NCBI GenBank assembly: GCA_018675975.1
Contig: JABGXB010000003.1
Span: forward strand, 267,821-331,820
Reading direction: 5' to 3'
Origin: Candidatus Woesearchaeota archaeon
Lineage (GTDB): Archaea; Nanobdellota; Nanobdellia; Woesearchaeales; JABGXB01
Length of the DNA: 64,000 bases
In this document: one piece after another, positions 9,695 through 48,347 of the stretch
How the letters are laid out: each line of letters starts with the position of its first letter
How positions within the stretch are numbered: position 1 is the stretch's first letter
Position numbers and translations under genes: made by a program
The notes under the pieces: generated by a model
What the model was told of the DNA's origin: nothing
Seen by the model: the letters and a program-made list of their open reading frames with translations, nothing else
Database searches by the model: none

Positions 9695-9696
9695 AC

Positions 9697-9775: not shown

Positions 9776-9873
9776 AATAAAATATATTTTTTATTAATGT
9801 AATTATCGTTAAATAAAGAAGTAAATATAGAAATTAAAAGAATATTTGAATCATCATAAATTTATATAATAAA

Positions 9874-9948: not shown

Positions 9949-10148
9949 ATAATTCTCAGACTTATTAACTATTTATAAAGATTTCTTTGATATTATTTTT
10001 TTTCTATTAAATAATATTCATTCATATTAAAAGATTAAACTCCACACATAAAAAGATTTCAATAAAACAAAATAGAATTGAAAAGTTTTCAATTACATTG
10101 AAATGTTTTTTAACAAGTTTATTTTAAACTAAATGTGTATATGAATTT

Positions 10149-18111: not shown

Positions 18112-18678
18112 TTATAAAGGTTTAGAAAATAATTTATTTTTAAATTCAGTCAATTTTTTATCATAATGTAATTTTAAAATATATTGTGATAAGTAATGAA
18201 ATCTAAATTTAAAATCAGTAACATATTTTAAAAATTCATTCCAATTACACTCAATTACTTTTATTTTTTCTCCATTATCTAATGATTGATCATATTTTTT
18301 AATACAATTTTTTGCAATATAAAAATGACAATTCCATTTAATTTTCCCATCTTTATTAAACACTTTAAACAATTTCCAATCATTTGAAACAAAACCACTC
18401 TCTTCTTTTAATTCTCTTTTTGCTGCTTGTAATGGAGTTTCTCCATTATCAATTCTACCACCAAAACAACCATGAACCCAATTATTCATACTAGGTTGAG
18501 TTTCATAAGGAATACATATTTTATTATCTTTTATTGCCAAAATTTGAACACCATCTGCTGTAACTGCAGTTTCAAAATATCCAACTTTACCATCATACAT
18601 TTTTTCTTTCCAAGAATAAATATCAATAAATTTACCAGAATATTTTTTTTTCAAATTATTTTTTTTATTAAAACTCAT
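18112..18678 (-). CDS. NUDIX hydrolase
   Basis: NUDIX box GGRIDNGETPLQAAKRELKEESG. Confidence 0.7.
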   Translation of the reverse strand: MSFNKKNNLKKKYSGKFIDIYSWKEKMYDGKVGYFETAVTADGVQILAIKDNKICIPYETQPSMNNWVHGCFGGRIDNGETPLQAAKRELKEESGFVSNDWKLFKVFNKDGKIKWNCHFYIAKNCIKKYDQSLDNGEKIKVIECNWNEFLKYVTDFKFRFHYLSQYILKLHYDKKLTEFKNKLFSKPL

Positions 18679-18711
18679 AAAATAAATTAGACTTTTGCAA
18701 TTATAAAATTA

Positions 18712-19335
18712 TTATTTTTTAAAATCTTTTAAAACCATTTCTAATAAATCAGAATTACAATTAAATTTTTTTATTAATTCATGCTCAATATGTCTATTCC
18801 ATTTATAATTTTTCAAATAAACAGGTATTCCTTCATTTGCACATTCTAATGCATACCTTTCTGAATCTTCAACTATAAAAAGTCCATTATTTATTTTAAT
18901 TAATTCTGGTTTAGTAGGTCCATATCCATGATAATATTTTGTTGCAAAAAGTACTTTTTCAACTGAAGGAAAATGTAAACGGATATAATTTTCAGTATCT
19001 CCATATGTATCCATTAATCGACTAGTTAAACATTGAATTCTAAAATATTCAGACAAATCATTAATACAATTTTGTGCATGTGCAATTGGTATTAAATTTG
19101 TATAAGCACCATTTTTGATATATTTCTGAAAAATACTTATTACATATTTAGAATCATGATTAGTGTGAGTAGTAATATCAGCAGATTTTAAATTTTCAAA
19201 TAAAAGTCTATCATTACCAACTAAACCATGATATTCATTCCAAAAATTACAAAAATCAGGTAATAAATGCACTAAAACTTCATCAATATCAAAAAAAATT
19301 AATTTTTTAGAATTATCATTTAAATCAAATTTCAT
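18712..19335 (-). CDS. HAD-superfamily hydrolase, 5'(3')-deoxyribonucleotidase-like
   Basis: HAD motif I FFDIDEVLVHLLPDF resembles the NT5C family (DMDGVLADF). Confidence 0.4.
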   Translation of the reverse strand: MKFDLNDNSKKLIFFDIDEVLVHLLPDFCNFWNEYHGLVGNDRLLFENLKSADITTHTNHDSKYVISIFQKYIKNGAYTNLIPIAHAQNCINDLSEYFRIQCLTSRLMDTYGDTENYIRLHFPSVEKVLFATKYYHGYGPTKPELIKINNGLFIVEDSERYALECANEGIPVYLKNYKWNRHIEHELIKKFNCNSDLLEMVLKDFKK

Positions 19336-24455: not shown

Positions 24456-25112
24456 TTAAATATTATTTTTAGAATTATTATAAATATATTTTGCAGCATC
24501 CAAAAAATCTTTTGCAATAAAAATATCTCCTTTTAATTGTTCAACTTTTTGTCTATCTCCTAGTTCTCTTGTTTTATAACTTTCAACTAAAATTCCAGTT
24601 CCTCCAATATTTAAACCCATTTGAACGTCAGAAAAACGATCCCCAATCATATAAATTTTACAATCTTCTTTTTTTACATTTAAATCAGTTAATGCTTTTT
24701 CAATCATACCAATATTTGGTTTTAAATCAAGACAGTTTTCTCTAATATATTTTTGATCTACTCTTCTTCCTTTTTCTAGTGCTTTTTTTACATAATTAGA
24801 ATCAACAAATGGACATGCATAATAATGATCAACTAAAGCTTCTTCATCTCTTAATTTATCTAAAATATATCTATTTACTTCATGCATTCTCTCAAAGGTT
24901 AAATTATCAAAATTTCCTCCTTCAAGTGCAACTCCAGATTGATTAGTTAAAATAAAAAACCGTGAATTTGGAATCTGATTAATTAATTTAATTCCATCCA
25001 CAACACCATCTAAAAAACTAACTTGTTCACGCCAATTAGAACTACTACCTAAATAAAAATTTTTATCTAAATTTATAGTCCCATCCCTATCAGAAAAAAC
25101 TAAAGTATACAT
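24456..25112 (-). CDS. HAD-IIIA phosphatase (GmhB/HisB-N-like)
   Basis: DRDGTIN, TNQSG, KPNIGM and GDRFSD motifs. Confidence 0.5.
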   Translation of the reverse strand: MYTLVFSDRDGTINLDKNFYLGSSSNWREQVSFLDGVVDGIKLINQIPNSRFFILTNQSGVALEGGNFDNLTFERMHEVNRYILDKLRDEEALVDHYYACPFVDSNYVKKALEKGRRVDQKYIRENCLDLKPNIGMIEKALTDLNVKKEDCKIYMIGDRFSDVQMGLNIGGTGILVESYKTRELGDRQKVEQLKGDIFIAKDFLDAAKYIYNNSKNNI

Positions 25113-28736: not shown

Positions 28737-29189
28737 ATGGATGAAAATATAATTAAACAAAGAATAATTCAACATACCTTATCACACGCTGATGAATATA
28801 GAGGTTATTTAACTCATTCAGGATTATTTCATTTAACAAATAATTTAGAATTAATTGGAAAATATCCTAGTGGAAGATTATTTCAAGGATTTTTAGTTGA
28901 TATTCTTGCTAATGAAATTAAACCTATATCTAATACAAACAAATCTCCTTTTTTGTCTTATCAAGTTAAAAAATTAAAACCAAATAATTTTGAATCTTTA
29001 ATTCTATCAGGAAAATATACTTTATCATATGACCCTGAAAAAAAAATGGTTTATTTAAAATCTAGAGAAATTGAAAAAGTAGAAAATATGAATGCATTAA
29101 GAAATGAAGAATTTTATAGATTATCTGCAGGAATGATGGGTTATAAAAATGACATTAATCCAATGATTAAAATATTATTTGAAGAATAA
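28737..29189 (+). CDS. hypothetical protein
   Basis: 150 aa, no motif. Confidence 0.35.
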   Translation: MDENIIKQRIIQHTLSHADEYRGYLTHSGLFHLTNNLELIGKYPSGRLFQGFLVDILANEIKPISNTNKSPFLSYQVKKLKPNNFESLILSGKYTLSYDPEKKMVYLKSREIEKVENMNALRNEEFYRLSAGMMGYKNDINPMIKILFEE

Positions 29190-29273: not shown

Positions 29274-31034
29274 ATGAATTATCAAATGAAGAATTTTTCC
29301 ACTGAGCAAACTGAATTATTAAGATCATTTCTTTTTACAGCTCCACATAGTAATGTAAGTTTAATTTATCCACAACAATTAGTTGCAGGTGAAGAACTAG
29401 CCCCATTAATTTCAGCATATTCAAGAAGCAATCAACCACTTCAAGAAAGAGTATTAGAATTTGTTGATAAACAAAAAAATACAGAAGCTAAAGCACTATT
29501 ACCACATTTACCAGAATTAATGAAAACATTTAGAAATGAAGATGGTTCATTAAAAATTAGTAAAAAAACAAGAAACTTTTCTAAAAAATGGGTTCTTGCG
29601 CACGGTCACAGTTCAATAAAAGAAATGAATTCTATTTTTGGATGTGTTGAAGGAATTTCAGACATTTGTGGAAAATTAATTACTGGACATCCTTTAGCCC
29701 ACCCTCAAGTTAAGTCATCAAGATATATTTCTTTTGAAGATACATTAGATATGGCATTAGTAGATCCAGACATTCAAAACTTATCTTGTTCAAATGAAAT
29801 TATAGAACATTTAAAAGAATTAAATACAGAATATCTTAATGCAACTAAATATTTAGCAAATGCAGTATTTAAATCTGAAGAAACTGATCAAATAAGAGAA
29901 TTTTTAACTCGAGACTCAGTATTAGATATGCATGGTGAAAAATTATTTAATCGTGCTAAAAAAAAAGATCCAGAATTAGTAAAAACTGACACATTAATAG
30001 AAGAATTAAAATCACAGGCTTATGAAAATATAAATAGTGATGAGTATGTAATGGGACAACTTGAAAAATTTGTTCTTGATAGAAGTAGAGTATATTTACC
30101 TGGTTCAACTAGAACAAGTTTAGGTTTTATGATTGATGGTAGAACATGTGAAGAAATCATTACAACATTATTAACTAGTCCTTTAATAGAAGCCCAAAGT
30201 TTTGGTAATCAAATTTGGACTGAAACAAAAAAAATCTCACCTGTTTTATTAGGAGATCAATCCCATATTAAAAAAGATGAATGGAAATATGAGTTAGATA
30301 CGGACTTTAGAAAAGAATTAGCTACACGATTAGATTATATTGTCATGCACTCTGAACAAAAATTTGGAAGAGTTTATTCACCAAGCTTTGTACATTCAAG
30401 AGGAGAAGATACAAGATCTGCAGTTATGGCTGCATATAAATATAGTGATTTTTCTTTTGATGATTTAATAGAACAATTAAAAGAAAAAGATGTTAAATGG
30501 ATTTTAGATAGAACTCACGAACATAGAAATAAATTTGATCAATTACATGAAAGTGGTGGTCATGGTGGTATGCTTACTGAAATGACTATGCCATATCATG
30601 GTTATAGAGATATGTTTAGACATAGAAAAGGAGCAAGATCTAATCAATTATATACAACAGTTCACGGTTTTGAAAATGTTGAAATTTTTAATCATTTTGA
30701 TATAAATTCAAGATATGAATTATTAATGAATAAAAATAATGAATTATTTAGAAAAGCAGCAAAAGAAAATCCCCATGCTGCACAAAAAGTTGTTGCCTTT
30801 GGTCAATTATGTAGAGCAGCACACAGTTGGTCATTAGAACAAATTGGATATATTGCAAGAATAAGAGCGAATATTGAAACCGGAAATATTAGTTATGTAA
30901 AAACTGTTCATCAAATTGTAGATGGTGTAAAAAGATTATCACCACAATTAGCATCAAAAATAAATTATAATCAAGAAATGTTTCCAGAACATATTTGGAA
31001 AGAAGGTTATGATTTATTTAGAAGTAAAAAATAA
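29274..31034 (+). CDS. tandem ThyX-like (flavin-dependent thymidylate synthase family) protein, N-terminal copy degenerate
   Basis: Residues ~115-160, HGHSSIKEMNSIFGCVEGISDICGKLITGHPLAHPQVKSSRY, align to the ThyX core HGHETPFEH...WFRHRIASYNELSGRY with RHR replaced by TGH. A C-terminal segment, GHGGMLTEMTMPYHGYRDMFRHRKGARSNQLY, retains RHR. Confidence 0.45.
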   Translation: MNYQMKNFSTEQTELLRSFLFTAPHSNVSLIYPQQLVAGEELAPLISAYSRSNQPLQERVLEFVDKQKNTEAKALLPHLPELMKTFRNEDGSLKISKKTRNFSKKWVLAHGHSSIKEMNSIFGCVEGISDICGKLITGHPLAHPQVKSSRYISFEDTLDMALVDPDIQNLSCSNEIIEHLKELNTEYLNATKYLANAVFKSEETDQIREFLTRDSVLDMHGEKLFNRAKKKDPELVKTDTLIEELKSQAYENINSDEYVMGQLEKFVLDRSRVYLPGSTRTSLGFMIDGRTCEEIITTLLTSPLIEAQSFGNQIWTETKKISPVLLGDQSHIKKDEWKYELDTDFRKELATRLDYIVMHSEQKFGRVYSPSFVHSRGEDTRSAVMAAYKYSDFSFDDLIEQLKEKDVKWILDRTHEHRNKFDQLHESGGHGGMLTEMTMPYHGYRDMFRHRKGARSNQLYTTVHGFENVEIFNHFDINSRYELLMNKNNELFRKAAKENPHAAQKVVAFGQLCRAAHSWSLEQIGYIARIRANIETGNISYVKTVHQIVDGVKRLSPQLASKINYNQEMFPEHIWKEGYDLFRSKK

Positions 31035-31066
31035 AAAAAAAAGAATAATAAAAAAGAGGTTAGTAA

Positions 31067-31696
31067 ATGAATTTAAGTATATATAGTGAGATTCCAATGC
31101 ATCAAGTTATTGAAGAAGTTAGAAAATCCCCTATGTTAAAATCTGATACTCAATTTCCTTACAAAAATGCAAATATTAGTTTACGTAATGTCGGTATGGG
31201 TGAAATTAATCCAACAAGTTTATATGCATTAAAAGCTAATTTGGATTTTCAAAAAAACTTAAGAGAATATATATTAAATAGATTTGGTTTTGATACATTA
31301 AGATTAAGTTCTGGTCTTATATTAGAAAATAAAGATGGGGAGCGTCAAACATTAATACCTCCTATAGTTGAAGTATCAGAAAGAGAAGTTAAGTTCATTC
31401 CACAAAAAGATGAATTATCATATGAAAATTCATATAAAATAAAAATACCGTGTTTACTTGATGGTATTCATCGCGCACTATGTGCAAAAGAATTAGGTAT
31501 AGATTTAAATGTAATTTTTATTTATGATTCAGATACCAATTATCCTGTTTATGCACATCCAAATGAATGGGATTTAGTTAAAATTTGTGATAGTATACCA
31601 AAAGAAAAAAGTCAAAAAAAAATGTATTTAAGAGATGATCATTCTAGTTTGTATAAATCATTTGCACACTTAGGTTCAAGTGGTCTTAGAAAATGA
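31067..31696 (+). CDS. hypothetical protein, ParB/Srx-like domain
   Basis: Segment IPCLLDGIHRALCAKELGID fits the ParB/sulfiredoxin DGxHRxxAxxxLG signature. Otherwise no matches. Confidence 0.3.
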   Translation: MNLSIYSEIPMHQVIEEVRKSPMLKSDTQFPYKNANISLRNVGMGEINPTSLYALKANLDFQKNLREYILNRFGFDTLRLSSGLILENKDGERQTLIPPIVEVSEREVKFIPQKDELSYENSYKIKIPCLLDGIHRALCAKELGIDLNVIFIYDSDTNYPVYAHPNEWDLVKICDSIPKEKSQKKMYLRDDHSSLYKSFAHLGSSGLRK

Positions 31697-32850
31697 GTAA
31701 TTTAGTTTTAGTTGAAGGAATAAGTGGAGCTGGTAAAAGTACAGCAATTAATTTTATTCAATCTTATCTTTCAACATTCAATATTCAAAGTCACACATTT
31801 AATGAACCCGGTCATATGCGAGATGAAATTAAAAAATATCATAATAGAGAAGACAGAGATCTTCAATTAGAATTTGATCATTATGTTTTATCCAGAAAAG
31901 TTGATTTACATCATAAAGTAATGCCAACTATAAAAAATCACCCAAAGGATACTATCCTCATTGATCGAAGTTGGATTTCTACAATGGTTTATCAACAAAC
32001 AGAACAATGTCCAATGATAAATATTCGTGATTATCATTCCTTTTATCCCAAACACAATTTAGCATTACTCTTAATTTGTGATCCTGAAACTGCATATCAA
32101 AGAATTTTAAAAAGAAAAGAAACTCAAGGAATAGAATTAAGTACATCTGAAAATCCAAAAAGAATTGCTGAACTTAGAAAAAGTTATATTGAAGCATTTG
32201 ATTTAGTAGATTATTCTGTAATTATTAATACTGATGGAAGTGAAAATGCAGTTAATTGTATTTTAAAATCTTATATGAATAAATTATTAGGAATTAAAGA
32301 AAAAAAAATTGTTTTTTTAGATAAAGATGGTACTTTAGTTGACAATTCTAAATATCCAGAAGTAATTCCAACGGATGAAATTCTTTTTGCAGATACATTA
32401 GAAGGATTATATAAATTAAAAAGTGCAGGATATGAATTTCATATGATTTCTTCTCAACCATGGGTTGCTAAAGGTCAATTAAGTTTAGATCAAACAAATG
32501 AAATTTTTGAAAGTGTTATAGAACAATATAAAAAATATGGAATTGAATTTACTGGATATGGTTTTTGTGAACATCATAGAAGTGATAATTGTCCAGATAA
32601 AAAACCAAATACAGGTTTATTAGAACAAATAGCAACTCAACAAAATATTGATATTTCTCAAAGCTTTTTTATAGGAGATATGGAATCGGATATTGAATGC
32701 GGTTATAATTTTGGATTACAAACTGGATTAGTAACTAAATATTCAAATGCAAAAACAATAGATAATTTATCTCAACAAAGATTTAAAAGAACTCCAAATT
32801 ATACTGCAATTAATTTGAATGAAATTGCAAATCAAATAATTGAAAATTAA
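31693..32850 (+). CDS. tmk: thymidylate kinase fused to HAD-IIIA phosphatase domain
   Basis: Tmk motifs: P-loop VLVEGISGAGKST, NEPGH, and the DRY-like IDRSWISTMVYQ. HAD motifs: FLDKDGTLV, ISSQ, DKKPNTGLL, IGDMESD. Confidence 0.6.
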   Translation: MSNLVLVEGISGAGKSTAINFIQSYLSTFNIQSHTFNEPGHMRDEIKKYHNREDRDLQLEFDHYVLSRKVDLHHKVMPTIKNHPKDTILIDRSWISTMVYQQTEQCPMINIRDYHSFYPKHNLALLLICDPETAYQRILKRKETQGIELSTSENPKRIAELRKSYIEAFDLVDYSVIINTDGSENAVNCILKSYMNKLLGIKEKKIVFLDKDGTLVDNSKYPEVIPTDEILFADTLEGLYKLKSAGYEFHMISSQPWVAKGQLSLDQTNEIFESVIEQYKKYGIEFTGYGFCEHHRSDNCPDKKPNTGLLEQIATQQNIDISQSFFIGDMESDIECGYNFGLQTGLVTKYSNAKTIDNLSQQRFKRTPNYTAINLNEIANQIIEN

Positions 32851-33025
32851 TATTTGTTAATTATATTAATTAAAAAAACTAAATTGTTTTTTTTTTGTAA
32901 AAAGAGTTCGAACGTTAATTCCTTACATTTGAATTTAATGAATATATAAAAACAAAAAAACAATATAATTCACTAAGCAGATAAAACAAAACATTATAAA
33001 GCAAATGTATCTATAAAAATAATAC

Positions 33026-33041
33026 ACACTAGGAATAGTGT
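33026..33041. promoter_or_regulatory. candidate NrdR-box-like palindrome (ACACTAGGAATAGTGT)
   Basis: ACAC-N8-GTGT imperfect palindrome about 115 bp upstream of nrdR. A half-site-like ACACAATATAC lies at 33060. Confidence 0.25.
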
Positions 33042-33154: not shown

Positions 33155-33604
33155 ATGAAATGCCCACATTGTAATTCAGATGATTTGAAAGTAAATGAAA
33201 CAAGAGAAACAGAATCAAATAGTTTTAGAAGAAGAAGAGAATGCAATAATTGTGAAGAAAGATTTACTACATATGAAAAAATTCAAGAATTATTAATTAG
33301 TGTAAAAAAAGAAAGTGGAAAATTAGAAAATTATACTAAAGAAAAATTAGAAAAAAGTTTTTTGATTGCTTGTAATAAAAGACCAATAACAAGAATTCAA
33401 ATATTAAAAATTATTGAAAACATTGAAAATAAAATAAGAAATAATTTTAAAAATGAAATTTCATCTAAGACATTAGGTGAATATGTAATGGAAGAATTAA
33501 AAATTTTAGATCCAATATCATATATTAGATATGCTTCAGTATACAAAGATTTTGATGATTTAGATAAATTTAATCAAGAATTAATATTATTAAAGGTGAA
33601 TTGA
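33155..33604 (+). CDS. nrdR: transcriptional repressor NrdR
   Basis: Zinc ribbon CPHCNSDD...CNNCEERFTTYE followed by an ATP-cone. Its stop abuts the nrdJ start. Confidence 0.8.
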   Translation: MKCPHCNSDDLKVNETRETESNSFRRRRECNNCEERFTTYEKIQELLISVKKESGKLENYTKEKLEKSFLIACNKRPITRIQILKIIENIENKIRNNFKNEISSKTLGEYVMEELKILDPISYIRYASVYKDFDDLDKFNQELILLKVN

Positions 33605-36600
33605 ATGGAACAAAGTATTGAAACAAAACGAACTGGTATAAAAGTTAAAAAAGTTTTTTGTAGTGATAATATAAGCCCATTTGAAACTGTTGAATTTGAA
33701 AACAGATCAAGTGTGATAAAAAATAGAGATGGTTCTATATTATTTGAAATAAATAATATTCATGCTCCAAAAAAATGGTCGCAAGTTGCCGTAGATATAA
33801 TGGCACAAAAATATTTTAGAAAAAGTGGAGTTCCACAATATGATGAAAATCAAAATGAAATTAAAGATGAATTTTCAAATATAATTACAGGTTCAGAAAC
33901 AGATATTACTCAACCAATAAAAAGATTAACTGGATGTTGGAGACATTGGGGAGAAAAATATAATTATTTTGATACGCAACAAGATGCAATTAATTTTGAA
34001 CAAGAAATACAATATATGTTATTACATCAAATCGCTGCACCAAATAGTCCACAATGGTTTAATACGGGACTTAAATGGGCATATAATATTTCTGGAAGTG
34101 CACAAGGACATTATTATGCTGAACATGAAACAGGTGAAATTAAATTATCTGAGGATGCATATTCAAGACCTCAACCGCATGCATGTGCGGATTATTATAC
34201 ACAAGTGTATACTGATAAGGGTACAATGTATATTGGAGATATAGTTGAAAATAATTTAACTAATATAAAAGTATTTGATGGAGAAAAATATGTAAAAGTT
34301 CTTGCAATCAAAAACAATGGAAAAAAAGAAGTGTTTAAAATTCAATTAAAAAATGGAAATTATATTAAATTAACTCAAGATCATTTAGTGCTATCATCAC
34401 AAAAAAGAAAAAAAAATGGTGGAAATTATAACTGGAATTATGTAAAAGATGTAAAATTAGGTCACAAATTACAACAACCATTAATTCTAGATATTAAAGA
34501 AAAAAATGTATTTAGTGATGATTTAGCAAAAGCAAGATTAGCCGGTTGGATAGTTGGAGACGGATCAGTTGGAATTTATGAAAATGTAATGAGATTGGAA
34601 ATTATTTCTATTAAAGAAGAAGAATTTGAATCAATAATAAATGATATTCAAGAAGTATTTGGACAAGAAGTTAATTTTTGGATTAGTAAATTTAAAACAA
34701 AAAACGAAAATTTAGATGGTAAAAGAATTCATTTAGCAGGTAAAAAAATACATAAATTAATTGAAGACTATGATTTACTAAAATCTTCATTTAATGCAGA
34801 AGTACCTCAAAAAATAATTAATGGGTCACCACAAGAAAAAAGAGAATTTTTAAAAGCCTTATTTCAAGCAGATGGTTGTGTCAGAATTAGAAAAGATGAA
34901 AATAGAAATTCAGGAGATGTGTGTTTAACTACAATTTCAGAAAATCTTTCATTTGGAGTTTTACAATTATTAAATTCATTAGGTATTTATTGTAGAATTA
35001 ATAAATATAGTGATAAAAGAGAAAATCGAAAAGATGTTAATCAAGTTATAGTATCTTATGGTAGTGCAAGAGAACAATTTCAAGAACAAATTTCTTTTAT
35101 ATGTTCTCAAAAAACCGAAAAATTAGAATTATTAAATAAAATTATAACAAAATCAAAAACACTTCCATTAATAAGAGAAGAAACAATTATTTCAATTGAA
35201 TCTGAAGGCATTAAAGATGTTTATGATATTCAAACAGAATCTTCAAAATTTCTTGGAAATGGAATTGTAATACATAATTGTTTTATTCAATCAGTTAAAG
35301 ATGATTTAGTTAATCAAGGTGGAATATTTGACCTTTGTACAAGAGAGGCAAGAATATTTAAATATGGTTCTGGAACTGGTTCAAATTTTTCACAATTAAG
35401 AGGTCAGTCTGAAAAATTATCAGGTGGTGGAAGATCTTCAGGTATGATGTCATTTTTAAAAATATTTGATGTGGCAGCTGGAGCAATTAAATCAGGTGGT
35501 ACAACAAGACGTGCAGCAAAAATGGTTTGTCTTGATTTGGATCATCCAGAAATTATTGAATTTATTGATTGGAAAGCAAATGAAGAAAAAAAAGTTGCTA
35601 ATTTAATTACTGGTTCAAAAAATTCAAAATATCATTTACAAAAAATATTAAAAGAAGCAAGTTCAAATTCAAATATAGAAAAAAATCCAAAATTAAAATC
35701 AGCAATTAAAGAAGCTATTGAACAAAATATTTCTTTAAATTATATTGATAGAGTTTTAAAACTTGCAAATCAAGGAATAACTGAATTTGAAACTCCCGAG
35801 TTTGATAATCATTTTGAAGGTGAAGCATATTCTACAGTTAGTGGACAAAATTCAAATAATTCAATAAGAATACCAAATTCATTTTATGAAGCTGTTCATA
35901 AAGACTTAGATTGGAATTTAAAAAATAGAACTGATGGAAAAATTTCAAAAACTGTAAGAGCAAAATGGCTTTATGATAAAATTGGACAAGCTGCTTGGGC
36001 TTGTGCAGATCCTGGTGTTCAATTTGATACGACAATTAATGAATGGCATACATGTCCAAAAGATGGAAGAATTAATGCAAGTAATCCTTGTTCTGAATAT
36101 ATGTTTTTAGATGATACTGCATGTAATTTAGCTAGTATTAATTTAATTCATTTTATTAATGATAGTGGACATTTTAATGAAGAAAAATTTGCTCATGCAT
36201 GTGAACTTATGACAATTGTTTTGGAAATTTCAGTTACTATGGCTCAATTTCCAAGTGATGAAATTGCAAAAAGAAGTTGGGAATATAGAACATTAGGTTT
36301 AGGTTTTGCAAATTTAGGGACATTACTCATGGTTAAAGGAATTTCTTATGATAGTGATGAAGCTAGAAGTATAGCTGGAGGAATTAGTGCCATAATGTGT
36401 GGAACTGCTTATGAAACATCTGCTAAACTCGCAAAACATCTAGGACCTTTTAACAGATATGAACATAATAAAGATGACATGTTAAGAGTTATTAGAAATC
36501 ATAGACGTGCTGCATATAATGTTTCAAATGAAGAGTATGAAAAATTAGAAATTACTCCAGTTGGCATTGATGAAAATTTATGTCCAAATAATATTTTACA

Positions 36601-38146
36601 AAAAGCTAGAAATTCATGGGATAATGCACTTGAACTTGGACAAGAATATGGATTTAGAAATGCACAAGTAACTGTTATTGCACCAACCGGAACTATTGGA
36701 CTTTTAATGGATTGTGATACTACAGGAGTTGAGCCAGACTTTGCAATTGTTAAATATAAAAAACTTGCAGGCGGTGGTTATTTTAAAATTGTAAATCATT
36801 CAGTTATTAAAGCATTGAGAACTTTAGGTTATGAAAAAGATCAAATTATTGATATTAAAAAATATTGTATAGGTCATCAAACATTAGTGGGTTGTCCAAC
36901 CATAAATCATAAAATTTTAAAAGATAAAGGATTTGATGAAGAAAAATTAGAACTTATTGAAAAACAATTAGAAACTGCATTTGATTTGAGTTTTGTTATG
37001 AATAAAAATATTTTAAGTGAAGAATTTTTAAAAAAATTAGGATTTAGTGATGAACAATTAAATTCTGAAATGTTTGATTTACTAGAAGAATTAAAATTTA
37101 CAAAAGAACAAGTTGATATTGCAAATGAATATGTTTTTGGAACAATGACAGTTGAAGATGCTCCATACTTATTAGAAGAACATTATTCAGTTTTTGATTG
37201 TGCAAATAAATGTGGAAAAAAAGGTAATAGATATATTGACACTTATGGACATATTAATATGATGGCAGCAGTTCAACCTTTTATTTCTGGTGCAATTAGT
37301 AAAACAATTAATATGGATTCAGAAGTTAGTGTTAAAGATATTTTAGATGCTTATGAAGCTAGTTGGAAATTAATGCTTAAAGCAAATGCATTATATAGAG
37401 ATGGATGTAAATTAAGTCAACCATTAAATACTGCTGTTTTTGAAAGTGAATACAATTTAAATTTATCTGAAGAAGATATTGATGAAACAGTTGATTCAGC
37501 AGCAATTCAACAACAAATTCAAACAATGAAAGCAAATCAGTTGCCGAGAAAAAGAGGTGGTTTTGTTCAAGAAGCAACTGTTGCAGGTCACAAAATATAT
37601 TTAAGAACTGGTGAATATAATGACGGAAAATTAGGTGAAATTTTTATTGACATGTATAAGGAAGGTGCTGCCTTTAAAGCACTAATAAATTGTTTTGCAG
37701 TTGCAATAAGTAAATCTCTACAATTTGGTGTTCCTTTAGAAGAATTTGTTGAACAGTTTACATTTACTAGATTTGAACCGGCAGGTTTAGTAACTGGACA
37801 TGAATATATTAAAAATTCTACGTCAATATTAGATTATGTATTTCGTGTTCTAGGCTATGAATATTTAGGTAGAGATGATTTAATTCATGTAAAACCTAAA
37901 AGAAAACCACTAGACATTATAGAACATGAAGATGATCCAAGAGATAAACATAAAACACTAGATAGTTTTTCTAATAGAAAAAATGTAGAAGAGACTAGAA
38001 ACGAAATGCTTTTTAAAAAAATTAATACTGCCAAATCAAGAGGATATACTGGAGAAGCATGTGGTTCTTGTGGTAGTATGAGAGTAAAAAGAAATGGAAG
38101 TTGTACACTTTGTGAAGATTGTGGTTCTACTAGTGGTTGCAGTTAG
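33605..38146 (+). CDS. nrdJ: ribonucleotide reductase, class II-like large monomeric type, with one intein
   Basis: N-terminal [17 protein letters not shown]; thiyl-radical loop NASNPCSEY; C-terminal CxxC...CxxC zinc ribbon. No glycyl-radical motif. Extein is 1148 aa. Confidence 0.8.
34184..35278 (+). mobile_element. intein with LAGLIDADG homing-endonuclease domain inside nrdJ
   Basis: Begins at Cys (PQPHA|CADYY) and ends VIHN|CFIQ (His-Asn, then the +1 Cys). Two LAGLIDADG blocks: [11 protein letters not shown] and [11 protein letters not shown]. 365 aa. Confidence 0.8.
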
Positions 38147-38590: not shown

Positions 38591-39103
38591 TTAATTCAAT
38601 TTATTACATAAATAATTAAATTCAGTACAGAAAAGTTCCAATCTTTCAATTATTTGATCATTAATAATTTCACTACCACTAATATCATTATATGTTGAAT
38701 AAACAAATCTTGGTAAAATAATACATCTAAAATCTAACATTAAGCTATTTACAAATGATAATGGTGCCATATAAGAACTTGAACCACCTGCAGAACATAA
38801 AATGCCAATTAATTTTTCACTTAAAGATTTTCCTGCAAGTTCAATTACATTTTTTGCTGAGCTATTAATATTATAATTATAAATTGGAAGTGCAAAAATC
38901 ACCCCATCTGCATTTTCAATTTGTTTTTTTAATTCAATTACATTAGTAAATTCATAACATTTCCCTGCATCACACATTGGCAAATCAAAATGAAATAAAT
39001 CGATAAATTCAATATCACAATCTAATCGAGATTTAACATATTTTGCAAGAATTCTACTTTTACTATCTTTATTTAAGCTTGTAGATATAATTAAAACTTT
39101 CAT
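38591..39103 (-). CDS. NADPH-dependent FMN reductase-like flavoprotein
   Basis: Flavodoxin-like pattern MKVLIISTS...IDLFHFDLPMCD...ADGVIFALPIYNYNI. Confidence 0.45.
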   Translation of the reverse strand: MKVLIISTSLNKDSKSRILAKYVKSRLDCDIEFIDLFHFDLPMCDAGKCYEFTNVIELKKQIENADGVIFALPIYNYNINSSAKNVIELAGKSLSEKLIGILCSAGGSSSYMAPLSFVNSLMLDFRCIILPRFVYSTYNDISGSEIINDQIIERLELFCTEFNYLCNKLN

Positions 39104-40023: not shown

Positions 40024-41961
40024 TTAATTGTTATATTTATTAAAAATAAAAATACCAGAACCTAAAATAAATATACTAAAAAAGATAAAAATATACCAAA
40101 TTATATTAACCATTTTACTATTTGTACTATTTTGAATTTCATTTACAATAATATTGCTATTTAATGAATCTTCATTTGAATTGATATTAATATTATTTAA
40201 TTCTAAATTTAAATTTAATAATTTTTTTTCCATTTCATTTCTTTTTGATTCCATTTCTAAATTAATTTTATCAATCTTATTTTTTAATTCATTATTCATA
40301 TTATTAACATCCTTTGAATTATCAACAATATTTGAATTATCATTTAAGCATTTAATTACATTAATTGAAATTGATTTTTTCAATAATTCATTATTATTTT
40401 TATTAAATGCTTGTAAAATAATATCACGTTCCCCTAATTTATTATTAATATTATAATTAAAACTAAAAGATTGATCATCTCCTTCATCTAAACTAAATTC
40501 TTTATTTAATTCAATATCATCATCAGTTAATTGTAAAGTTAAGTCTTCAATATCTCTACTACCAACATTTACTAAATCTCCATTTATTTTTATACCATTA
40601 AATGAACATAAATCTATTTCTTTTGTATAAAATAAATTATCAATAATTAATTCTTCTCTATCTTTTTTTATTTTTACTCTGATAGTAAAATTTGCTTCAT
40701 GAAAATAACTCTCATTATCCAATACACTAGCATATAAATTGAAATTTGATCTTTCTTCTTTATTATCAAATGGTATTATTGATTCATCAAAATCAATATC
40801 AATAGTTTCACAATCATTTTTTACAATATCTAATTCTTCTTCATCAATATCAATTCTAAACATTTCACCATATAATCTTATATTTTCTAAATCTGTATTT
40901 TTTACATTACAAATTTTAACTTCAGCTGATATTTGATCCCCTACTTTAAAATCATCATCATAGGCTCTACCTGAATTATCAAAACGTTCTTTTTTATCAT
41001 TTCTATGTAATTTTACAAATTCAAATTCAAGTGGATTTTTAGGATTTACATTAATTTTTCCATCAATTGTAATTACTTCATTTAAAACATTTGTTAATTC
41101 TAATTGAAAACTATTTTCACCATAATTTAATTGAGGATTAAAAATAATATCATTAACTTCCAGTCCATTAAATTTCCATTTATAATTTACAATAAAATTA
41201 CTATTTGTTAAATCTAAAAATTGTTCATATAAGTTAAATGAACTTAAATCCTCTTCATTTAAATTAATAGTAATATTATTATTTAATGATAAAAAATCAC
41301 TATGTGTTTTATTTGTTACAATAGTATATATTTTCCCATTAGGAATATTATTACTATCATTTTTTTGAAATAAAACATGCAAATAAAGATTCTTATTTTG
41401 ATAATTAATTAAATCACCATCATTTAAAATAATTGTAAGTTTTTTATCACCGCCTTGATAAAAAGGATAAACATTCCAATCATCTTTATTTAAACCAAAT
41501 TTTTCATAAGTAAAATCATCATTTGAATTTAAAATTAAAGCATTCCATAAAAAATTCATTCCACTATTAATATATCTACTAATCAATTCTGAATATATTA
41601 TTTCATTTGAATCATTAGGTCTATCAATTACATTTATAGTTTCTTGTTTAATTTTATATTGACCTAAACTATTTTTTAAAATAAATGTAATATTATGAAT
41701 TCCACTATTATGATATACATGATTTATATTATTTAAATTATAATGTTTTAATTCATTTGTACCAAAATCAACTATTGAATAATCTAAATTAAAACCGCTT
41801 TGAGTTAAAGTATTTAATGTAAAATTAAAAGGCTCATTTACATAAATAGTTGTAGGTAATTCCACAGTATAATCCATACCATTTTCAAATACACCATTTA
41901 CAGAAATTAAACTAATTGATATAAAAAATATTAAAACTAATAATTTATTTATTATTTTCAT
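40024..41961 (-). CDS. large cell-surface protein (signal peptide, C-terminal TM anchor), paralogue A
   Basis: Signal-like N-terminus and C-terminal coiled coil plus TM. Shares the blocks DNSGRAYDDDFKVGDQISAEVKICN and FDESIIPFDNKEERSNFNLY with the neighbouring 688-aa protein. Confidence 0.5.
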   Translation of the reverse strand: MKIINKLLVLIFFISISLISVNGVFENGMDYTVELPTTIYVNEPFNFTLNTLTQSGFNLDYSIVDFGTNELKHYNLNNINHVYHNSGIHNITFILKNSLGQYKIKQETINVIDRPNDSNEIIYSELISRYINSGMNFLWNALILNSNDDFTYEKFGLNKDDWNVYPFYQGGDKKLTIILNDGDLINYQNKNLYLHVLFQKNDSNNIPNGKIYTIVTNKTHSDFLSLNNNITINLNEEDLSSFNLYEQFLDLTNSNFIVNYKWKFNGLEVNDIIFNPQLNYGENSFQLELTNVLNEVITIDGKINVNPKNPLEFEFVKLHRNDKKERFDNSGRAYDDDFKVGDQISAEVKICNVKNTDLENIRLYGEMFRIDIDEEELDIVKNDCETIDIDFDESIIPFDNKEERSNFNLYASVLDNESYFHEANFTIRVKIKKDREELIIDNLFYTKEIDLCSFNGIKINGDLVNVGSRDIEDLTLQLTDDDIELNKEFSLDEGDDQSFSFNYNINNKLGERDIILQAFNKNNNELLKKSISINVIKCLNDNSNIVDNSKDVNNMNNELKNKIDKINLEMESKRNEMEKKLLNLNLELNNININSNEDSLNSNIIVNEIQNSTNSKMVNIIWYIFIFFSIFILGSGIFIFNKYNN

Positions 41962-41972
41962 TGTACCTCAAT

Positions 41973-44039
41973 TTAAATATAAACTAATAAAATAAGTCCA
42001 AATATTAACATCAATACAACACCAATTGCTATAATTAATAATATTGTTTGTTTTTTTTGTTCTGATTTATTTAAATTATCTTGTAAATCATTATCTAAAT
42101 TTATGTTTTGATTTTCTAATAATAATTTTTTATATTCACTAATAAAATCATCATTATTATTTTCAACACCATTTAATTCATTTAATAATTTTAAATTCTT
42201 TTCATATAAATCTTGATCAGTTTGAATATTATTTGAACAATCATTTAATGAAATATCTAATTCTTTATAGTCAACTATATAATTATCCCTATATACTTCT
42301 GCAAAAAATTTATACTGTCCAATGGATGCAGAATTTGGAAAATTAAAATTTGTGAAAGCACTAAATTCATTATCATTTTTATAATCAATATCGAAATCTT
42401 TTATTGATTCAAAATTGAATTGCTCTGAATAAAATCTAACATGCCCATTTTCATCATTATCACCAATATTAAATATTAATGCAGATAATGAAATTGCTTT
42501 ATTATCAAAACAATTTTGTACTACAGTTGGAGTTACTAAAAATTTTTTGAATAATAAATCATGATTTTTTCTATCTACTTTTAATTTAACTGTAAAATTA
42601 TCTTCTTGAAAATAATCTAAATCATCTCTACCTTCAATATTAATAAACATATTAAATGTTTTATCTTCAGCATCATAAGGAATGTGATCTTTATCAAATT
42701 TAACTGAACGTACTTCACACTCATCTTCTGATAATGTAAAATCTGATTTCTCATCATCATCTAAATCACTACCATCATCAATATCTTTTATTATAGCACT
42801 AATTGCAATATCTTCAATATTAATATCTGAATTACTATCATAATCATTACATACTTTAATTTCTACACTAAAATCTTGACCTGGCTTAATATCTTTTGAA
42901 TATCTTTCTCCACTATTTCTAATTCTATCTGATTTGTCATTAACAATTACTTTTACTCTATCAATTCTTAACATTTTTCTTTGAATCGGTTTAATATCTG
43001 CTTCAATCACTTTACCATTAAAAGATAATTTAATTTCACCCAATAAATCAATATCTATTGGACGACTTGAACTTGCATGAATATTAAATGTTTTATTTTC
43101 TAATTCATTTAATGCAAAATTAGTTTCAAAATTACTATATTCAATAAATGAATCAAAAGAACTAATATCTAAACCAATATTTTCTAAATTTGATTCACCA
43201 GTATTTTTAACAGTGAAATTAAAATCAAATTCAGATTCTAATCCACTAATATTAATTTGAATTTCATTAGGTATAATTGTTAATTCCTGTATTTTTTCTC
43301 TTACTTCAATATTTGAAATTTGATAATTTTTATTAAAATTAAATTCTGACTGATCTACATTTAAATCGTATTTATACAAACCGCTAACTAAATCATTACT
43401 AATAAAAACTTCAAAACTTAAATTTTTCACTTCAGATTTATTTAATAAAATTATTTTCTTTTCAACATCTAAAGGAAAAAAACTTGATGTTTTTAATAAA
43501 TTATTAAAATTAATTTCAACTTGAGTATCATAATTTGATTGACTAATAAATTCAAATTCAATAGTATTTGTTTTACCCTTTACTATTTTTTTTGTTATTG
43601 CCTTTACATCAAATTGTGTATTTCTAGAAATATCTAAACTAATTGGCAATAATGTTTGTTCAGATTTACTATCTGTTGCAATTATTGTCCCATTATATTT
43701 ACCATAAGTAGGATTATTTGATAAATCAATAAAAAAATCAACTGATTTTTGTCCATTAGCATCAAAATTTCCTAATTGTGCATTTACACCATTTAATTCA
43801 ATAGCTAAAAATTCACCATTAGCATTTGATAAAACAAGTCCACTAAGTGCAATATTTACATTTGTTGAATCTAAATTTGTAATTTTAAACTGACTATTAA
43901 CTTTAGATGTTCTAAGTCCATTACTTAAATCACTTAATTCTATACTTTCTTTGTCAAAATTAGGTACTGCATTACTAAATGCTGAAACTAATGTTGCAAA
44001 TATAATCAAAAATGCAAATAAATGCGTTAATTTTTTCAT
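41973..44039 (-). CDS. large cell-surface protein, paralogue B
   Basis: Same architecture as paralogue A. Blocks RNSGERYSKDIKPGQDFSVEIKVCN and FDKDHIPYDAEDKTFNMFINIEG. Confidence 0.5.
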   Translation of the reverse strand: MKKLTHLFAFLIIFATLVSAFSNAVPNFDKESIELSDLSNGLRTSKVNSQFKITNLDSTNVNIALSGLVLSNANGEFLAIELNGVNAQLGNFDANGQKSVDFFIDLSNNPTYGKYNGTIIATDSKSEQTLLPISLDISRNTQFDVKAITKKIVKGKTNTIEFEFISQSNYDTQVEINFNNLLKTSSFFPLDVEKKIILLNKSEVKNLSFEVFISNDLVSGLYKYDLNVDQSEFNFNKNYQISNIEVREKIQELTIIPNEIQINISGLESEFDFNFTVKNTGESNLENIGLDISSFDSFIEYSNFETNFALNELENKTFNIHASSSRPIDIDLLGEIKLSFNGKVIEADIKPIQRKMLRIDRVKVIVNDKSDRIRNSGERYSKDIKPGQDFSVEIKVCNDYDSNSDINIEDIAISAIIKDIDDGSDLDDDEKSDFTLSEDECEVRSVKFDKDHIPYDAEDKTFNMFINIEGRDDLDYFQEDNFTVKLKVDRKNHDLLFKKFLVTPTVVQNCFDNKAISLSALIFNIGDNDENGHVRFYSEQFNFESIKDFDIDYKNDNEFSAFTNFNFPNSASIGQYKFFAEVYRDNYIVDYKELDISLNDCSNNIQTDQDLYEKNLKLLNELNGVENNNDDFISEYKKLLLENQNINLDNDLQDNLNKSEQKKQTILLIIAIGVVLMLIFGLILLVYI

Positions 44040-48346: not shown

Positions 48347-48347
48347 A

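What the first reader, a model, noticed from the sequence alone, without database searches (positions are those of the whole stretch)
29274..32850. Atypical three-gene thymidylate-type cluster (tandem ThyX-like, ParB/Srx-like, Tmk::HAD fusion) next to nrdR-nrdJ
Three co-directional, tightly spaced genes each carry an unusual architecture. (1) A 586-aa protein has two ThyX-like half-sites; the N-terminal one has RHR replaced by TGH and the C-terminal one keeps RHR. (2) A 209-aa protein shows only a ParB/sulfiredoxin-like DGxHR...G segment. (3) A thymidylate-kinase domain is fused to a GmhB/PNKP-type HAD-IIIA phosphatase. The last two genes overlap by 4 bp, and the nrdR-nrdJ operon starts 300 bp downstream. 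The conservative reading is dUMP to dTMP to dTDP synthesis in a fused or pseudo-dimerised form. The alternative is synthesis of a modified pyrimidine nucleotide. ThyA/ThyX homologues, P-loop nucleotide kinases and ParB/Srx domains repeatedly co-occur in DNA base-hypermodification pathways. A kinase fused to a phosphatase is hard to rationalise in a plain dTDP pathway. This is inference.
Basis: partly seen in the sequence, partly recalled or inferred. Interest (0 to 1): 0.8.

Follow-up and report, generated by a model that had tools for sequence, protein, structure and literature searches.

The report
Four-part thymidylate module with ParB-like enzyme
Three neighbouring genes in this DPANN archaeon form a widely conserved four-activity unit for making the DNA building block thymidylate: a doubled ThyX synthase, a thymidylate kinase, and an uncharacterised ParB-like enzyme always paired with a phosphatase, whose role is testable.

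Summary
ORF 29274-31034 is a ThyX-fold protein made of two diverged ThyX repeats. The N repeat has TGH in place of RHR but keeps the S-x-R-Y loop. The C repeat keeps RHR and the Arg174 equivalent but lacks that loop. ORF 31067-31696 belongs to Pfam ParB-CE (ParB/Srx fold). ORF 31693-32850 is Tmk fused to an intact HAD-IIIA phosphatase.

The genes are conserved as a unit in DPANN archaea and some CPR bacteria, and the unit has four activities, not three. A HAD phosphatase is always present. It is fused to Tmk as here, or encoded as a separate HAD-IA or HAD-IIIA gene. Elsewhere ParB-CE is fused to HAD or HD phosphohydrolases, or paired with the NT5C deoxynucleotidase.

Best reading: a housekeeping pyrimidine deoxynucleotide module. 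ParB-CE plus HAD probably hydrolyse dUTP/dUDP or dCTP/dCDP to the monophosphate. ThyX makes dTMP and Tmk makes dTDP. The hydrolase step is inference by analogy with the Calcineurin-CE/HAD cascade.

Nothing supports base hypermodification, though it is not excluded. Tandem ThyX and ParB-CE are known families. I found no description of the module.

The parts
29274..31034 (+). Tandem-duplicated ThyX-like flavin-dependent thymidylate synthase, 586 aa (identical to NCBI HOK68_05080, Candidatus Woesearchaeota)
29559..30278 (+). N-terminal ThyX repeat (about aa 96-335). Keeps G-H112-x-S114-x-x-E117, S148-x-R150-Y151, R272 (Arg147 equivalent) and R290. RHR is replaced by T137-G138-H139, and there is no Arg174 equivalent.
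   Evidence: Pfam stretch 96-324. Family invariants. hhalign against T. maritima ThyX. Motif coordinates.
30411..31031 (+). C-terminal ThyX repeat (about aa 380-586). Keeps E436, R445, R449-H450-R451, K505 (in place of Arg147) and R531 (Arg174 equivalent). The Ser88-Gly-Arg90-Tyr91 loop is deleted.
   Evidence: hhalign against T. maritima ThyX over 184-194 columns. tblastn hit of aa 388-563 to a phage thymidylate synthase, E 1e-8. Invariants.
31067..31696 (+). ParB-CE protein, 209 aa (ParB/Srx fold). Phosphate-binding motif D132-G-x-H135-R136 at nt 31460-31474. No HTH or dimerisation domain.
31693..32292 (+). Thymidylate-kinase domain of the fusion protein (aa 1-200). P-loop G9-ISGAGKST, D91-R92...YQ, LID arginines 137-142.
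   Evidence: Pfam Thymidylate_kin 63 bits. TIGR00041 72 bits, below the 83.25 cut-off. Motifs.
32299..32850 (+). HAD-IIIA phosphatase domain of the fusion protein (aa 203-385). Motif I D210-K-D212-G-T, motif II S253, motif III K303/K304 after a Cys-His loop, motif IV G328-D-M-E-S-D333.
   Evidence: TIGR01662 82.4 bits vs 44.6; TIGR01656 86.7 vs 84.15. Motifs conserved in 9 fused homologues.
32887..32896 (+). Run of ten T, 37 nt after the ORF3 stop. Possible archaeal oligo-T terminator marking the end of the three-gene transcription unit (inference).
   Evidence: Read directly from the sequence.
33026..33041 (.). Context: NrdR-box-like palindrome ACACTAGGAATAGTGT upstream of nrdR (33155-33604) and nrdJ (33605-38146). 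No such box lies upstream of the ThyX gene.
   Evidence: Pattern search: the only perfect match in the window. nrdR follows the module also in L022.

Best explanation
The three genes encode a four-activity housekeeping module for pyrimidine deoxynucleotides. It is conserved across DPANN archaea and occurs in some CPR bacteria.

(1) Shown by sequence and fold. ORF1 is a tandem-duplicated ThyX. Its two repeats have lost complementary halves of the catalytic motif set. A dimer of this protein would therefore mimic the ThyX tetramer with about two intact composite active sites. It most likely still makes dTMP from dUMP using FAD, NAD(P)H and a methylene donor.

(2) Shown by sequence. The N-terminal domain of ORF3 is a Tmk-family kinase that would convert dTMP to dTDP.

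(3) Inferred. ParB-CE (ORF2) and the HAD phosphatase form a two-enzyme phosphohydrolase pair. They would strip phosphates from a pyrimidine deoxynucleoside tri- or diphosphate (dUTP/dUDP, or dCTP/dCDP ahead of deamination). The product is the monophosphate that feeds ThyX. This is the job done by dUTPase, or by T4 gp56 dCTPase/dUTPase, elsewhere.

The fusions Tmk::HAD, Tmk::ThyX and ParB-CE::HAD suggest that the four activities act together, possibly as a complex.

My confidence is about 0.8 for (1), (2) and the four-part module, and about 0.3 for the specific reaction in (3).
For: Module conservation. 35 non-redundant loci plus the window carry ThyX-like, ParB-CE, Tmk and HAD, co-directional and mostly overlapping.

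The phosphatase is always there but not always the same one.
- A separate HAD-IA gene in 21 of the 35 non-redundant loci.
- HAD-IIIA fused to Tmk in 12 plus the window.
- A separate HAD-IIIA gene in L032.
Replacement of one HAD subfamily by another in the same slot argues that the activity itself is required.

Fusions: Tmk::ThyX-like in L062; ParB-CE::HAD in P0163; HD::ParB-CE in P0292, P0298 and P0299. ParB-CE is followed by the NT5C deoxynucleotidase in a CPR bacterium.

The closest named relative of the HAD-IA partner is pyrimidine 5'-nucleotidase TIGR01993 (E 2e-13, below cut-off).

Precedent. In the PUA-Calcineurin-CE-HAD system the HAD converts dNTP to dNDP and the CE enzyme converts dNDP to dNMP (PMC12871103). 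Pfam places ParB-CE (PF24392) next to HD-CE (PF24391).

ThyX. Fold matches, complementary motifs and matching order of secondary-structure elements in the two halves. A full-length homologue in a jumbo phage is annotated thymidylate synthase and lies beside a dCMP deaminase and a dUTPase, the canonical dUMP suppliers.

The catalytic motifs of both HAD types and of Tmk are conserved.
Against: No biochemistry exists for any member of this module.

ParB-CE activity is unknown. Its best structural matches include kinases (SbnI, SerK, sulfiredoxin), so a phosphotransferase is equally compatible with the fold.

A Dut-like ORF lies directly upstream of the module in L008, and a dCMP-deaminase-like ORF lies 1 kb downstream in L017. 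ParB-CE/HAD is therefore not simply a replacement for those enzymes.

L014 keeps ThyX-like, HAD and Tmk without ParB-CE.

The ThyX-like protein and the Tmk domain score below the NCBIfam equivalog cut-offs: 26.9 vs 87.9 and about 70 vs 83.25. L008 has a second, more canonical Tmk 5 kb away.

Its numbering agrees with the mutant names H53D, S88A, R90A, E144R and R174A in the PDB titles. The hhalign statistics are weak (E 0.003-0.07).

I could not check whether the genome has another thyA, thyX, tmk or dut.
Confidence: 0.4

Rival explanations
1. Pool-balancing valve or substrate cycle. ParB-CE and HAD are catabolic. They degrade surplus pyrimidine dNTPs through dNMPs to nucleosides, and are co-expressed with ThyX and Tmk to set the dTTP/dUTP level. 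This would resemble the mammalian TK/dNT substrate cycles.
For: The HAD-IA partner is closest to pyrimidine 5'-nucleotidase. NT5C is the partner in a CPR bacterium. NUDIX genes lie next to the module in 6 distinct loci. The ParB-CE family name marks it as a predicted nucleotide degrader. A Dut-like ORF next to the module in L008 does not conflict with this reading.
Against: Translational coupling, and even fusion, of a dTMP kinase with a nucleotidase acting on dTMP or dUMP would create a futile cycle. The module sits with anabolic genes such as nrdJ and pyrB.
Confidence: 0.2
2. ParB-CE is a new small-molecule kinase, for example a deoxyuridine/thymidine or other nucleoside kinase used in salvage by these auxotrophic symbionts. 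The HAD would be the opposing or preparatory phosphatase, for example a 3'-phosphatase as in T4 PNK.
Confidence: 0.12
3. Modified-pyrimidine pathway. The diverged ThyX makes a non-methyl C5 product or acts on another nucleotide. The diverged Tmk paralogue phosphorylates that product. ParB-CE/HAD remove the canonical competitor, as in phages that replace a base.
Against: Every canonical ThyX catalytic residue is kept at least once. The module's Tmk is fully canonical in L014 and L062 (128-135 bits). ParB-CE has no relatives in IMG/VR or GenBank phages, and the tandem ThyX has none in IMG/VR. The one phage homologue lies with a dCMP deaminase and a dUTPase. No second thymidylate synthase appears in any locus.
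Confidence: 0.06
4. Anti-virus conflict system. ParB-CE/HAD is a nucleotide-depleting immune effector pair, controlled by a CARF-type sensor, that happens to be linked to thymidylate genes.
For: CE stands for conflict effector, and the related Calcineurin-CE/HAD pair is a proven defence system (PMC12871103). A CARF/Csa3-like wHTH gene lies next to ParB-CE in 5 distinct loci.
Against: No PADLOC model matches ParB-CE, ThyX-like or the HAD-IA. The window has no sensor domain. The position between ThyX and Tmk is fixed across dozens of divergent genomes with translational coupling, unlike mobile defence islands. The CARF protein carries a wHTH, which suggests a transcription regulator.
Confidence: 0.04

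Closest known systems
Flavin-dependent thymidylate synthase ThyX (Pfam Thy1; T. maritima TM0449, M. tuberculosis ThyX), including the domain-duplicated ThyX reported in Chloroflexi and a few other species
   Different: One polypeptide carries two repeats with complementary motif loss, so at most half of the canonical sites can be intact. It scores far below the ThyX equivalog cut-off (26.9 vs 87.9). A profile of the family finds no PDB ThyX by sequence. It has large helical insertions (aa about 160-260 and 330-420).
ParB-CE (Pfam PF24392), the ParB/Srx branch named with Calcineurin-CE and HD-CE as nucleotide-targeting conflict effectors (Nicastro et al. 2023, NAR gkad879; not readable here)
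   Same: A direct Pfam member (54 bits). It has the DGxHR phosphate-binding motif, lacks the DNA-binding domains of partition ParB, and is partnered with a HAD or HD phosphohydrolase.
   Different: Here it lies inside a housekeeping thymidylate operon of archaea, with no sensor or defence context and no PADLOC hit. I could not check whether that paper already mentions this context.
PUA-Calcineurin-CE-HAD defence system of E. coli ECOR28 (PMC12871103)
   Same: A CE-type phosphoesterase obligatorily paired with a HAD phosphatase. There the pair carries out dNTP to dNDP (HAD) and dNDP to dNMP (CE). I transfer that mechanism by analogy.
   Different: The CE fold differs (calcineurin vs ParB/Srx). 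There is no PUA sensor and no evidence of filaments. The output there is toxic dNTP depletion, whereas here it is presumably productive supply of dUMP or dCMP.
T4 dNTP-synthesis gene set: gp56 dCTPase/dUTPase, td or gp42, gp1 dNMP kinase, cd dCMP deaminase (general knowledge)
   Same: The same pathway logic: hydrolyse a pyrimidine dNTP to the dNMP, modify at C5, then re-phosphorylate with a dedicated kinase. The enzymes there also form a complex.
   Different: All the enzymes are unrelated in fold except the P-loop kinase. This is a cellular, not a viral, setting.
T4 polynucleotide kinase/phosphatase and GmhB/HisB-N HAD-IIIA phosphatases
   Same: An N-terminal P-loop kinase with a C-terminal HAD-IIIA phosphatase in one chain. 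The HAD domain has the Cys/His loop typical of GmhB/HisB-N.
   Different: The kinase is clearly Tmk family, not PNK. The GmhB, HisB and DNA 3'-phosphatase equivalog cut-offs are all missed.

Membership tests
ThyX / flavin-dependent thymidylate synthase | ThyX fold | tested here: met
ThyX / flavin-dependent thymidylate synthase | Pfam Thy1 gathering score | tested here: met
   40 bits vs 24.8, residues 96-324.
ThyX / flavin-dependent thymidylate synthase | NCBIfam TIGR02170 equivalog cut-off | tested here: not met
   26.9 bits vs 87.9.
ThyX / flavin-dependent thymidylate synthase | ThyX motif RHR(X)7S, with the S-x-R-Y loop in the same repeat | tested here: inconclusive
   The motif is split. 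RHR (449-451) occurs only in the C repeat. S148-x-R150-Y151 occurs only in the N repeat, where RHR is TGH. Every element is present once per chain.
ThyX / flavin-dependent thymidylate synthase | FAD-, NAD(P)H- and CH2-folate-dependent conversion of dUMP to dTMP; tetrameric active sites | not testable with these tools
   Needs an enzyme assay or thyA complementation, and a multimer model or structure.
ParB-CE (PF24392), ParB/Srx superfamily | Pfam gathering score | tested here: met
   54.4 bits vs 23. All 90 database homologues carry PF24392.
ParB-CE (PF24392), ParB/Srx superfamily | ParB/Srx fold with a phosphate-binding DGxxR/GxxR helix start | tested here: met
ParB-CE (PF24392), ParB/Srx superfamily | Nucleotide phosphohydrolase activity | not testable with these tools
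   Prediction only. No member has been assayed, as far as I could find.
Chromosome/plasmid partition ParB | HTH DNA-binding and C-terminal dimerisation domains; parS/ParA partner | tested here: not met
   A 209-aa single-domain protein with an N-terminal extension. No HTH or ParBc Pfam hit. No parA next to it.
Thymidylate kinase (Tmk) | Pfam Thymidylate_kin; P-loop, DR...YQ and LID arginines | tested here: met
   63.2 bits vs 27. Motifs at aa 9-17, 91-102 and 137-143.
Thymidylate kinase (Tmk) | NCBIfam TIGR00041 equivalog cut-off | tested here: not met
   69.6-72.1 bits vs 83.25. Module Tmk in L014 and L062 score 128-135 bits.
HAD-IIIA phosphatase | TIGR01662/TIGR01656 cut-offs and four catalytic motifs | tested here: met
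   82.4 vs 44.6 and 86.7 vs 84.15. DxDGT, S, K and GDxxxD are present and conserved.
GmhB / HisB-N / PNKP 3'-phosphatase (specific HAD-IIIA functions) | Equivalog cut-offs | tested here: not met
   NF006506 89.7 vs 178; TIGR00213 70.3 vs 149.6; TIGR01261 75.9 vs 140; TIGR01664 33.8 vs 107.65.
Anti-phage CE-effector systems (e.g. PUA-Cal-HAD) | Sensor domain plus CE effector plus HAD in a defence context | tested here: not met
   No PUA or other sensor in the window. No PADLOC hit for ParB-CE, ThyX-like or HAD-IA. The genomic position is fixed and housekeeping.
Phage DNA base-hypermodification clusters | Occurrence in viral genomes together with base-modifying transferases | tested here: not met
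   No ParB-CE or tandem ThyX relatives in IMG/VR. No ParB-CE in GenBank phages. The single phage tandem ThyX lies with a dCMP deaminase and a dUTPase.

The most novel reading that the evidence does not exclude
The module is the cellular counterpart of a phage base-replacement toolkit. The diverged tandem ThyX installs a non-methyl C5 group, or acts on a non-dUMP substrate. The diverged Tmk paralogue phosphorylates that product. ParB-CE/HAD destroy the canonical competing nucleotide. Many DPANN archaea and some CPR bacteria would then carry a modified pyrimidine in their DNA.
Probability: 0.06. Interest if true: 0.95.

Novelty: new variant of a known kind. Interest (0 to 1): 0.6.

Why it matters
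DPANN archaea and CPR bacteria have minimal genomes, and how they obtain DNA precursors is poorly understood. This module is one of the most conserved gene clusters seen around their only recognisable thymidylate synthase.

It places an uncharacterised ParB/Srx-family enzyme and a phosphatase at the core of dTTP synthesis. If the pair is a two-step dUTP/dCTP-to-monophosphate route, that would be a new enzymatic solution to a textbook step. It would also be a housekeeping counterpart to the nucleotide-depleting conflict-effector enzymes used in bacterial immunity.

The tandem ThyX with complementary half-sites is also a natural experiment on how many of the four ThyX sites are needed. All four proteins are small and soluble-looking, so the predictions can be tested directly.

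Tried and rejected
- A single-sequence database search with ORF2 found nothing. An alignment built from neighbouring loci was needed.
- Sequence searches of PDB found no ThyX or ParB. This held for the ThyX-like profile, both halves as single sequences, and the ParB-CE profile. Only fold comparison made the link.
- hhalign of the N half in global mode gave a meaningless alignment. N half against C half is not significant by sequence (E 0.086). The duplication therefore rests on motifs, the order of secondary-structure elements, and both halves aligning to ThyX.
- The afdb50 fold library was unavailable, so I could not compare with chlamydial or Chloroflexi tandem ThyX models.
- The paper that defined the CE families (NAR gkad879, PMC10681802) is not held. 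Literature searches for ParB-CE, ThyX plus ParB, CT632, and Woesearchaeota thymidylate gave nothing useful.
- I looked for NrdR control of the ThyX operon. The only perfect NrdR-box-like palindrome lies upstream of nrdR itself.
- I considered ParB-CE/HAD as a plain replacement for dUTPase. I weakened this after finding a Dut-like ORF beside the module in L008 and a dCMP-deaminase-like ORF in L017.
- The upstream 150-aa ORF (28737-29189) is not conserved next to the module, so I excluded it.
- Whole-genome presence or absence of thyA, thyX, tmk, dut and dcd could not be examined with the available tools.


Full report
**Source and setting.** The window has about 23% G+C. It carries archaeal housekeeping genes: FtsZ, Spt5/NGN-KOW, a Cdc48-type AAA ATPase, GatD, NMD3 and five tRNAs. 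ORF 29274-31034 is identical to NCBI protein HOK68_05080 of a Candidatus Woesearchaeota archaeon, seen on a contig of 1.03 Mb. This is cellular DPANN archaeal DNA.

**Checking the observation.** The three ORFs are as described: 586, 209 and 385 aa on the + strand. There is a 32-nt gap between ORF1 and ORF2 and a 4-nt ATGA overlap between ORF2 and ORF3. nrdR starts 304 nt after ORF3's last base. Shine-Dalgarno-like GGTG and GAGGT sequences precede ORF1 and ORF2, and a run of ten T follows ORF3.

**ORF1 is a tandem ThyX.**
- Pfam Thy1 is matched above its gathering score (40 bits, residues 96-324). The NCBIfam ThyX equivalog model is missed by a wide margin (26.9 vs 87.9).
- A family profile finds no PDB ThyX by sequence.
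- Motif reading was done against the T. maritima sequence. Its numbering matches the H53D, S88A, R90A, E144R and R174A mutants named.
- The N repeat keeps G-H112-x-S114-x-x-E117, S148-x-R150-Y151, R272 and R290. It has T137-G138-H139 instead of RHR and has no Arg174 equivalent.
- The C repeat keeps E436, R445, R449-H450-R451, K505 and R531 (Arg174). It has deleted the Ser88-Arg90-Tyr91 loop.
- Most of these residues are invariant or nearly so in the 19-sequence alignment of homologues 28-45% identical to the query.
- The order of strands and helices around these motifs repeats in the two halves.
- ThyX active sites are built from three subunits (title of Leduc et al. 2004, cited). This complementary pattern is therefore what one expects of a fused pseudo-heterodimer that keeps one class of site and has lost the other. 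That last step is inference.
- Domain-duplicated ThyX has been noted before as uncharacterised (Valas and Bourne 2009).
- A 518-aa full-length homologue occurs in a jumbo phage (hhalign probability 99.8%, E 7.5e-30). It is annotated thymidylate synthase and lies next to a dCMP deaminase and near a dUTPase.

**ORF2 is a ParB-CE protein.**
- It matches Pfam PF24392 (54 bits).
- A single-sequence database search failed. An alignment of neighbours from related loci recovered 90 homologues, all carrying PF24392.
- A profile search of 1.84 billion representatives found 706 clusters, mostly stand-alone proteins of about 200 aa.
- Across 140 diverse representatives, Y32, Y53, P98, P99, E102, D132, G133, H135, R136 and W168 are at least 97% conserved. 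That is an enzyme-like signature around the phosphate-binding helix start of the superfamily.
- The protein has no HTH or dimerisation domain, so it is not a partition ParB.
- CE stands for conflict effector (PMC12871103). The family was named with Calcineurin-CE and HD-CE as predicted nucleotide-targeting effectors. I could not read the defining paper.

**ORF3 is Tmk fused to HAD-IIIA.**
- The kinase domain has the P-loop, DR...YQ and LID arginines. It scores 70-72 bits on the dTMP-kinase equivalog model, against a cut-off of 83.25.
- The phosphatase domain passes the HAD-IIIA and histidinol-phosphatase-domain cut-offs. It keeps all four catalytic motifs and a GmhB/HisB-type Cys/His loop. It misses every function-specific cut-off: GmhB, HisB and DNA 3'-phosphatase.
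- The HAD domain is therefore not a dead appendage.

**The unit is conserved and has four parts.** I fetched 27 genome loci through the ThyX-like protein and 33 metagenome loci through ParB-CE. I scanned their ORFs with my own profiles. In 35 non-redundant loci plus the window, ThyX-like, ParB-CE, Tmk and a HAD phosphatase lie together, co-directional and usually overlapping.

The phosphatase takes several forms:
- A separate HAD-IA gene after Tmk in 17 loci.
- The same HAD-IA gene before Tmk in 3 loci.
- HAD-IIIA fused to Tmk in 12 loci and the window.
- A separate 175-aa HAD-IIIA gene in L032 (also in frameshifted L061).
- L062, the one remaining locus with a separate HAD-IA gene, fuses Tmk to the N terminus of the ThyX-like protein.
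- Three loci carry two ParB-CE copies flanking ThyX.

A TGA-recoded CPR bacterium (L030) has ThyX-like, ParB-CE and HAD-IIIA without Tmk. Another CPR bacterium (L028) has only ParB-CE overlapping an NT5C deoxynucleotidase gene, with a NUDIX gene divergent from it.

Exceptions with enough flanking sequence are L014 (no ParB-CE), L020 and L021 (ThyX-like alone), L025 and L041.

Rare fusion proteins join ParB-CE to HAD (P0163) and to an HD/HD-CE domain (P0292, P0298, P0299). The constant partner of ParB-CE is thus a phosphohydrolase. The phosphatase links all the other components through fusions.

**Wider context.**
- nrdR follows the module here and in L022.
- pyrB and an inorganic pyrophosphatase flank it in L014.
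- A Dut-like ORF lies upstream in L008, and a dCMP-deaminase-like ORF lies 1 kb downstream in L017.
- NUDIX genes adjoin it in 6 distinct loci. A CARF/Csa3-like wHTH gene lies directly next to ParB-CE in 5.
- ParB-CE has no relatives in IMG/VR or GenBank phages, and the tandem ThyX has none in IMG/VR. No PADLOC model matches ParB-CE.
- Everything points to housekeeping pyrimidine deoxynucleotide metabolism.

**Mechanism.**
- Shown: the folds, the families, the intact catalytic motifs, and the conserved four-part organisation with fusions.
- Inferred with good support: ThyX makes dTMP and Tmk makes dTDP.
- Inferred by analogy: ParB-CE and HAD are a two-step phosphohydrolase pair acting on a pyrimidine dNTP or dNDP to give the dNMP that enters ThyX, either directly as dUMP or as dCMP before deamination.

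The analogy rests on four points:
1. In the experimentally dissected PUA-Calcineurin-CE-HAD system, HAD removes the gamma phosphate and the CE enzyme removes the beta phosphate.
2. Canonical ParB hydrolyses CTP (general knowledge).
3. The HAD-IA partner is closest to pyrimidine 5'-nucleotidases, and NT5C is the partner in CPR.
4. The phage tandem ThyX has a dCMP deaminase and a dUTPase in the neighbouring positions.

This would make the module an analogue of the T4 gp56/td/gp1 set. It also explains why a phosphatase can be fused to a kinase without a futile cycle: the two domains act on different substrates at the two ends of a short pathway.

Points against this model:
- A Dut-like ORF beside the module in L008.
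- The absence of ParB-CE in L014.
- The kinase-like structural neighbours of ParB-CE.
- The lack of any assay.

**Rivals.** They are a catabolic pool valve, a nucleoside-kinase salvage role for ParB-CE, a modified-pyrimidine pathway, and an immune effector. Each is listed with its evidence in the rival explanations. The modified-base idea is kept alive only by three things: the sub-threshold scores of ThyX-like and Tmk, the second canonical Tmk near the module in L008, and the near-equal structural match to PolB.

**Novelty and verdict.** The tandem ThyX and the ParB-CE family are each known kinds, and Tmk and HAD are ordinary. What appears undescribed in the literature I could search is their obligatory association in DPANN and CPR. 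That association includes the interchange of HAD subfamilies and the Tmk::HAD, Tmk::ThyX and ParB-CE::HAD fusions. I rate it a new variant of a known kind with interest 0.6. It is a concrete, testable lead to a possibly new step in dTTP synthesis in minimal cells. It is not evidence for DNA hypermodification.

Noticed in passing
window 33605-38146 (intein about 34184-35278): The class II ribonucleotide reductase NrdJ (1513 aa) is interrupted by an intein. It starts at Cys194 (CADYYTQ...) and ends ...VIHN558, followed by Cys559. It carries two LAGLIDADG-type motifs (LAGWIVGDG at aa 312, LFQADGCV at aa 419). This was read from the sequence and not checked with a profile.
   Followed up: partly
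window 33026-33041 and 33155-33604: An NrdR repressor gene in an archaeon, translationally abutting nrdJ. A perfect NrdR-box-like palindrome ACACTAGGAATAGTGT lies about 115 nt upstream, with a weaker second box about 32 nt further on. NrdR is mainly bacterial, so this suggests horizontal acquisition of the nrdR-nrdJ unit.
   Followed up: partly
window 18112-19335 (- strand): An adjacent NUDIX (18112-18678) and NT5C deoxynucleotidase (18712-19335) gene pair, 10 kb from the module. The same two families flank ParB-CE in the CPR locus L028. This organism therefore has a second set of nucleotide hydrolases.
   Followed up: no
window 24456-25112 (- strand): A second, stand-alone HAD-IIIA-like phosphatase (218 aa, DRDGT motif) next to ftsZ. 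It matches my fused-HAD profile at E 7e-15.
   Followed up: no
L030 (Logan SRR24236066 contig), 4687-10425: A TGA-recoded bacterium (5-18 in-frame TGA per gene; code 25 or 4). It carries ThyX-like (550 aa), an unknown 234-aa protein, an EamA transporter, ParB-CE, a stand-alone HAD-IIIA, and a second, N-terminally truncated ThyX-like paralogue (414 aa, two Pfam Thy1 stretches).
   Followed up: partly
L010 2632-3336, L055 2879-3583, L025 2259-2984, L031 4729-5427, L039 5201-5911: A 232-241-aa CARF/Csa3_N (HFX_2341_N) protein lies directly beside ParB-CE in five distinct loci. One of them (L010) shows a faint C-terminal winged-helix hit. In two loci it is inserted between ThyX-like and ParB-CE. 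It is a candidate ligand-sensing regulator of the module. No copy occurs in the window.
   Followed up: partly
L065 (Tunturiibacter phage Tunturi_5, PP885688.1) 518-4606: A 309-kb jumbo phage encodes a full-length tandem ThyX (gp50, 518 aa) with the same split motif pattern. It is preceded by a dCMP deaminase (gp49) and lies near a dUTPase (gp47). It was the only phage hit.
   Followed up: yes
L008 7400-7837 and 15703-16356: One Woesearchaeota genome has a Dut-like ORF divergent from the module. It also has a second, more canonical Tmk (TIGR00041 86 bits, against 70 for the module's Tmk) 5 kb downstream.
   Followed up: partly
window 40024-44039 (- strand): Two large adjacent ORFs (645 and 688 aa) with no Pfam match at E <= 1e-4. 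Several further ORFs of 160-330 aa also have no match (17106-18089, 44192-44701, 47052-49298, 53109-54375, 56784-57479).
   Followed up: no
window 38591-39103 (- strand): An NADPH-dependent FMN reductase family gene lies just downstream of nrdJ. It could be a flavin-reducing partner for flavoenzymes such as ThyX, but there is no evidence of linkage in other loci.
   Followed up: no
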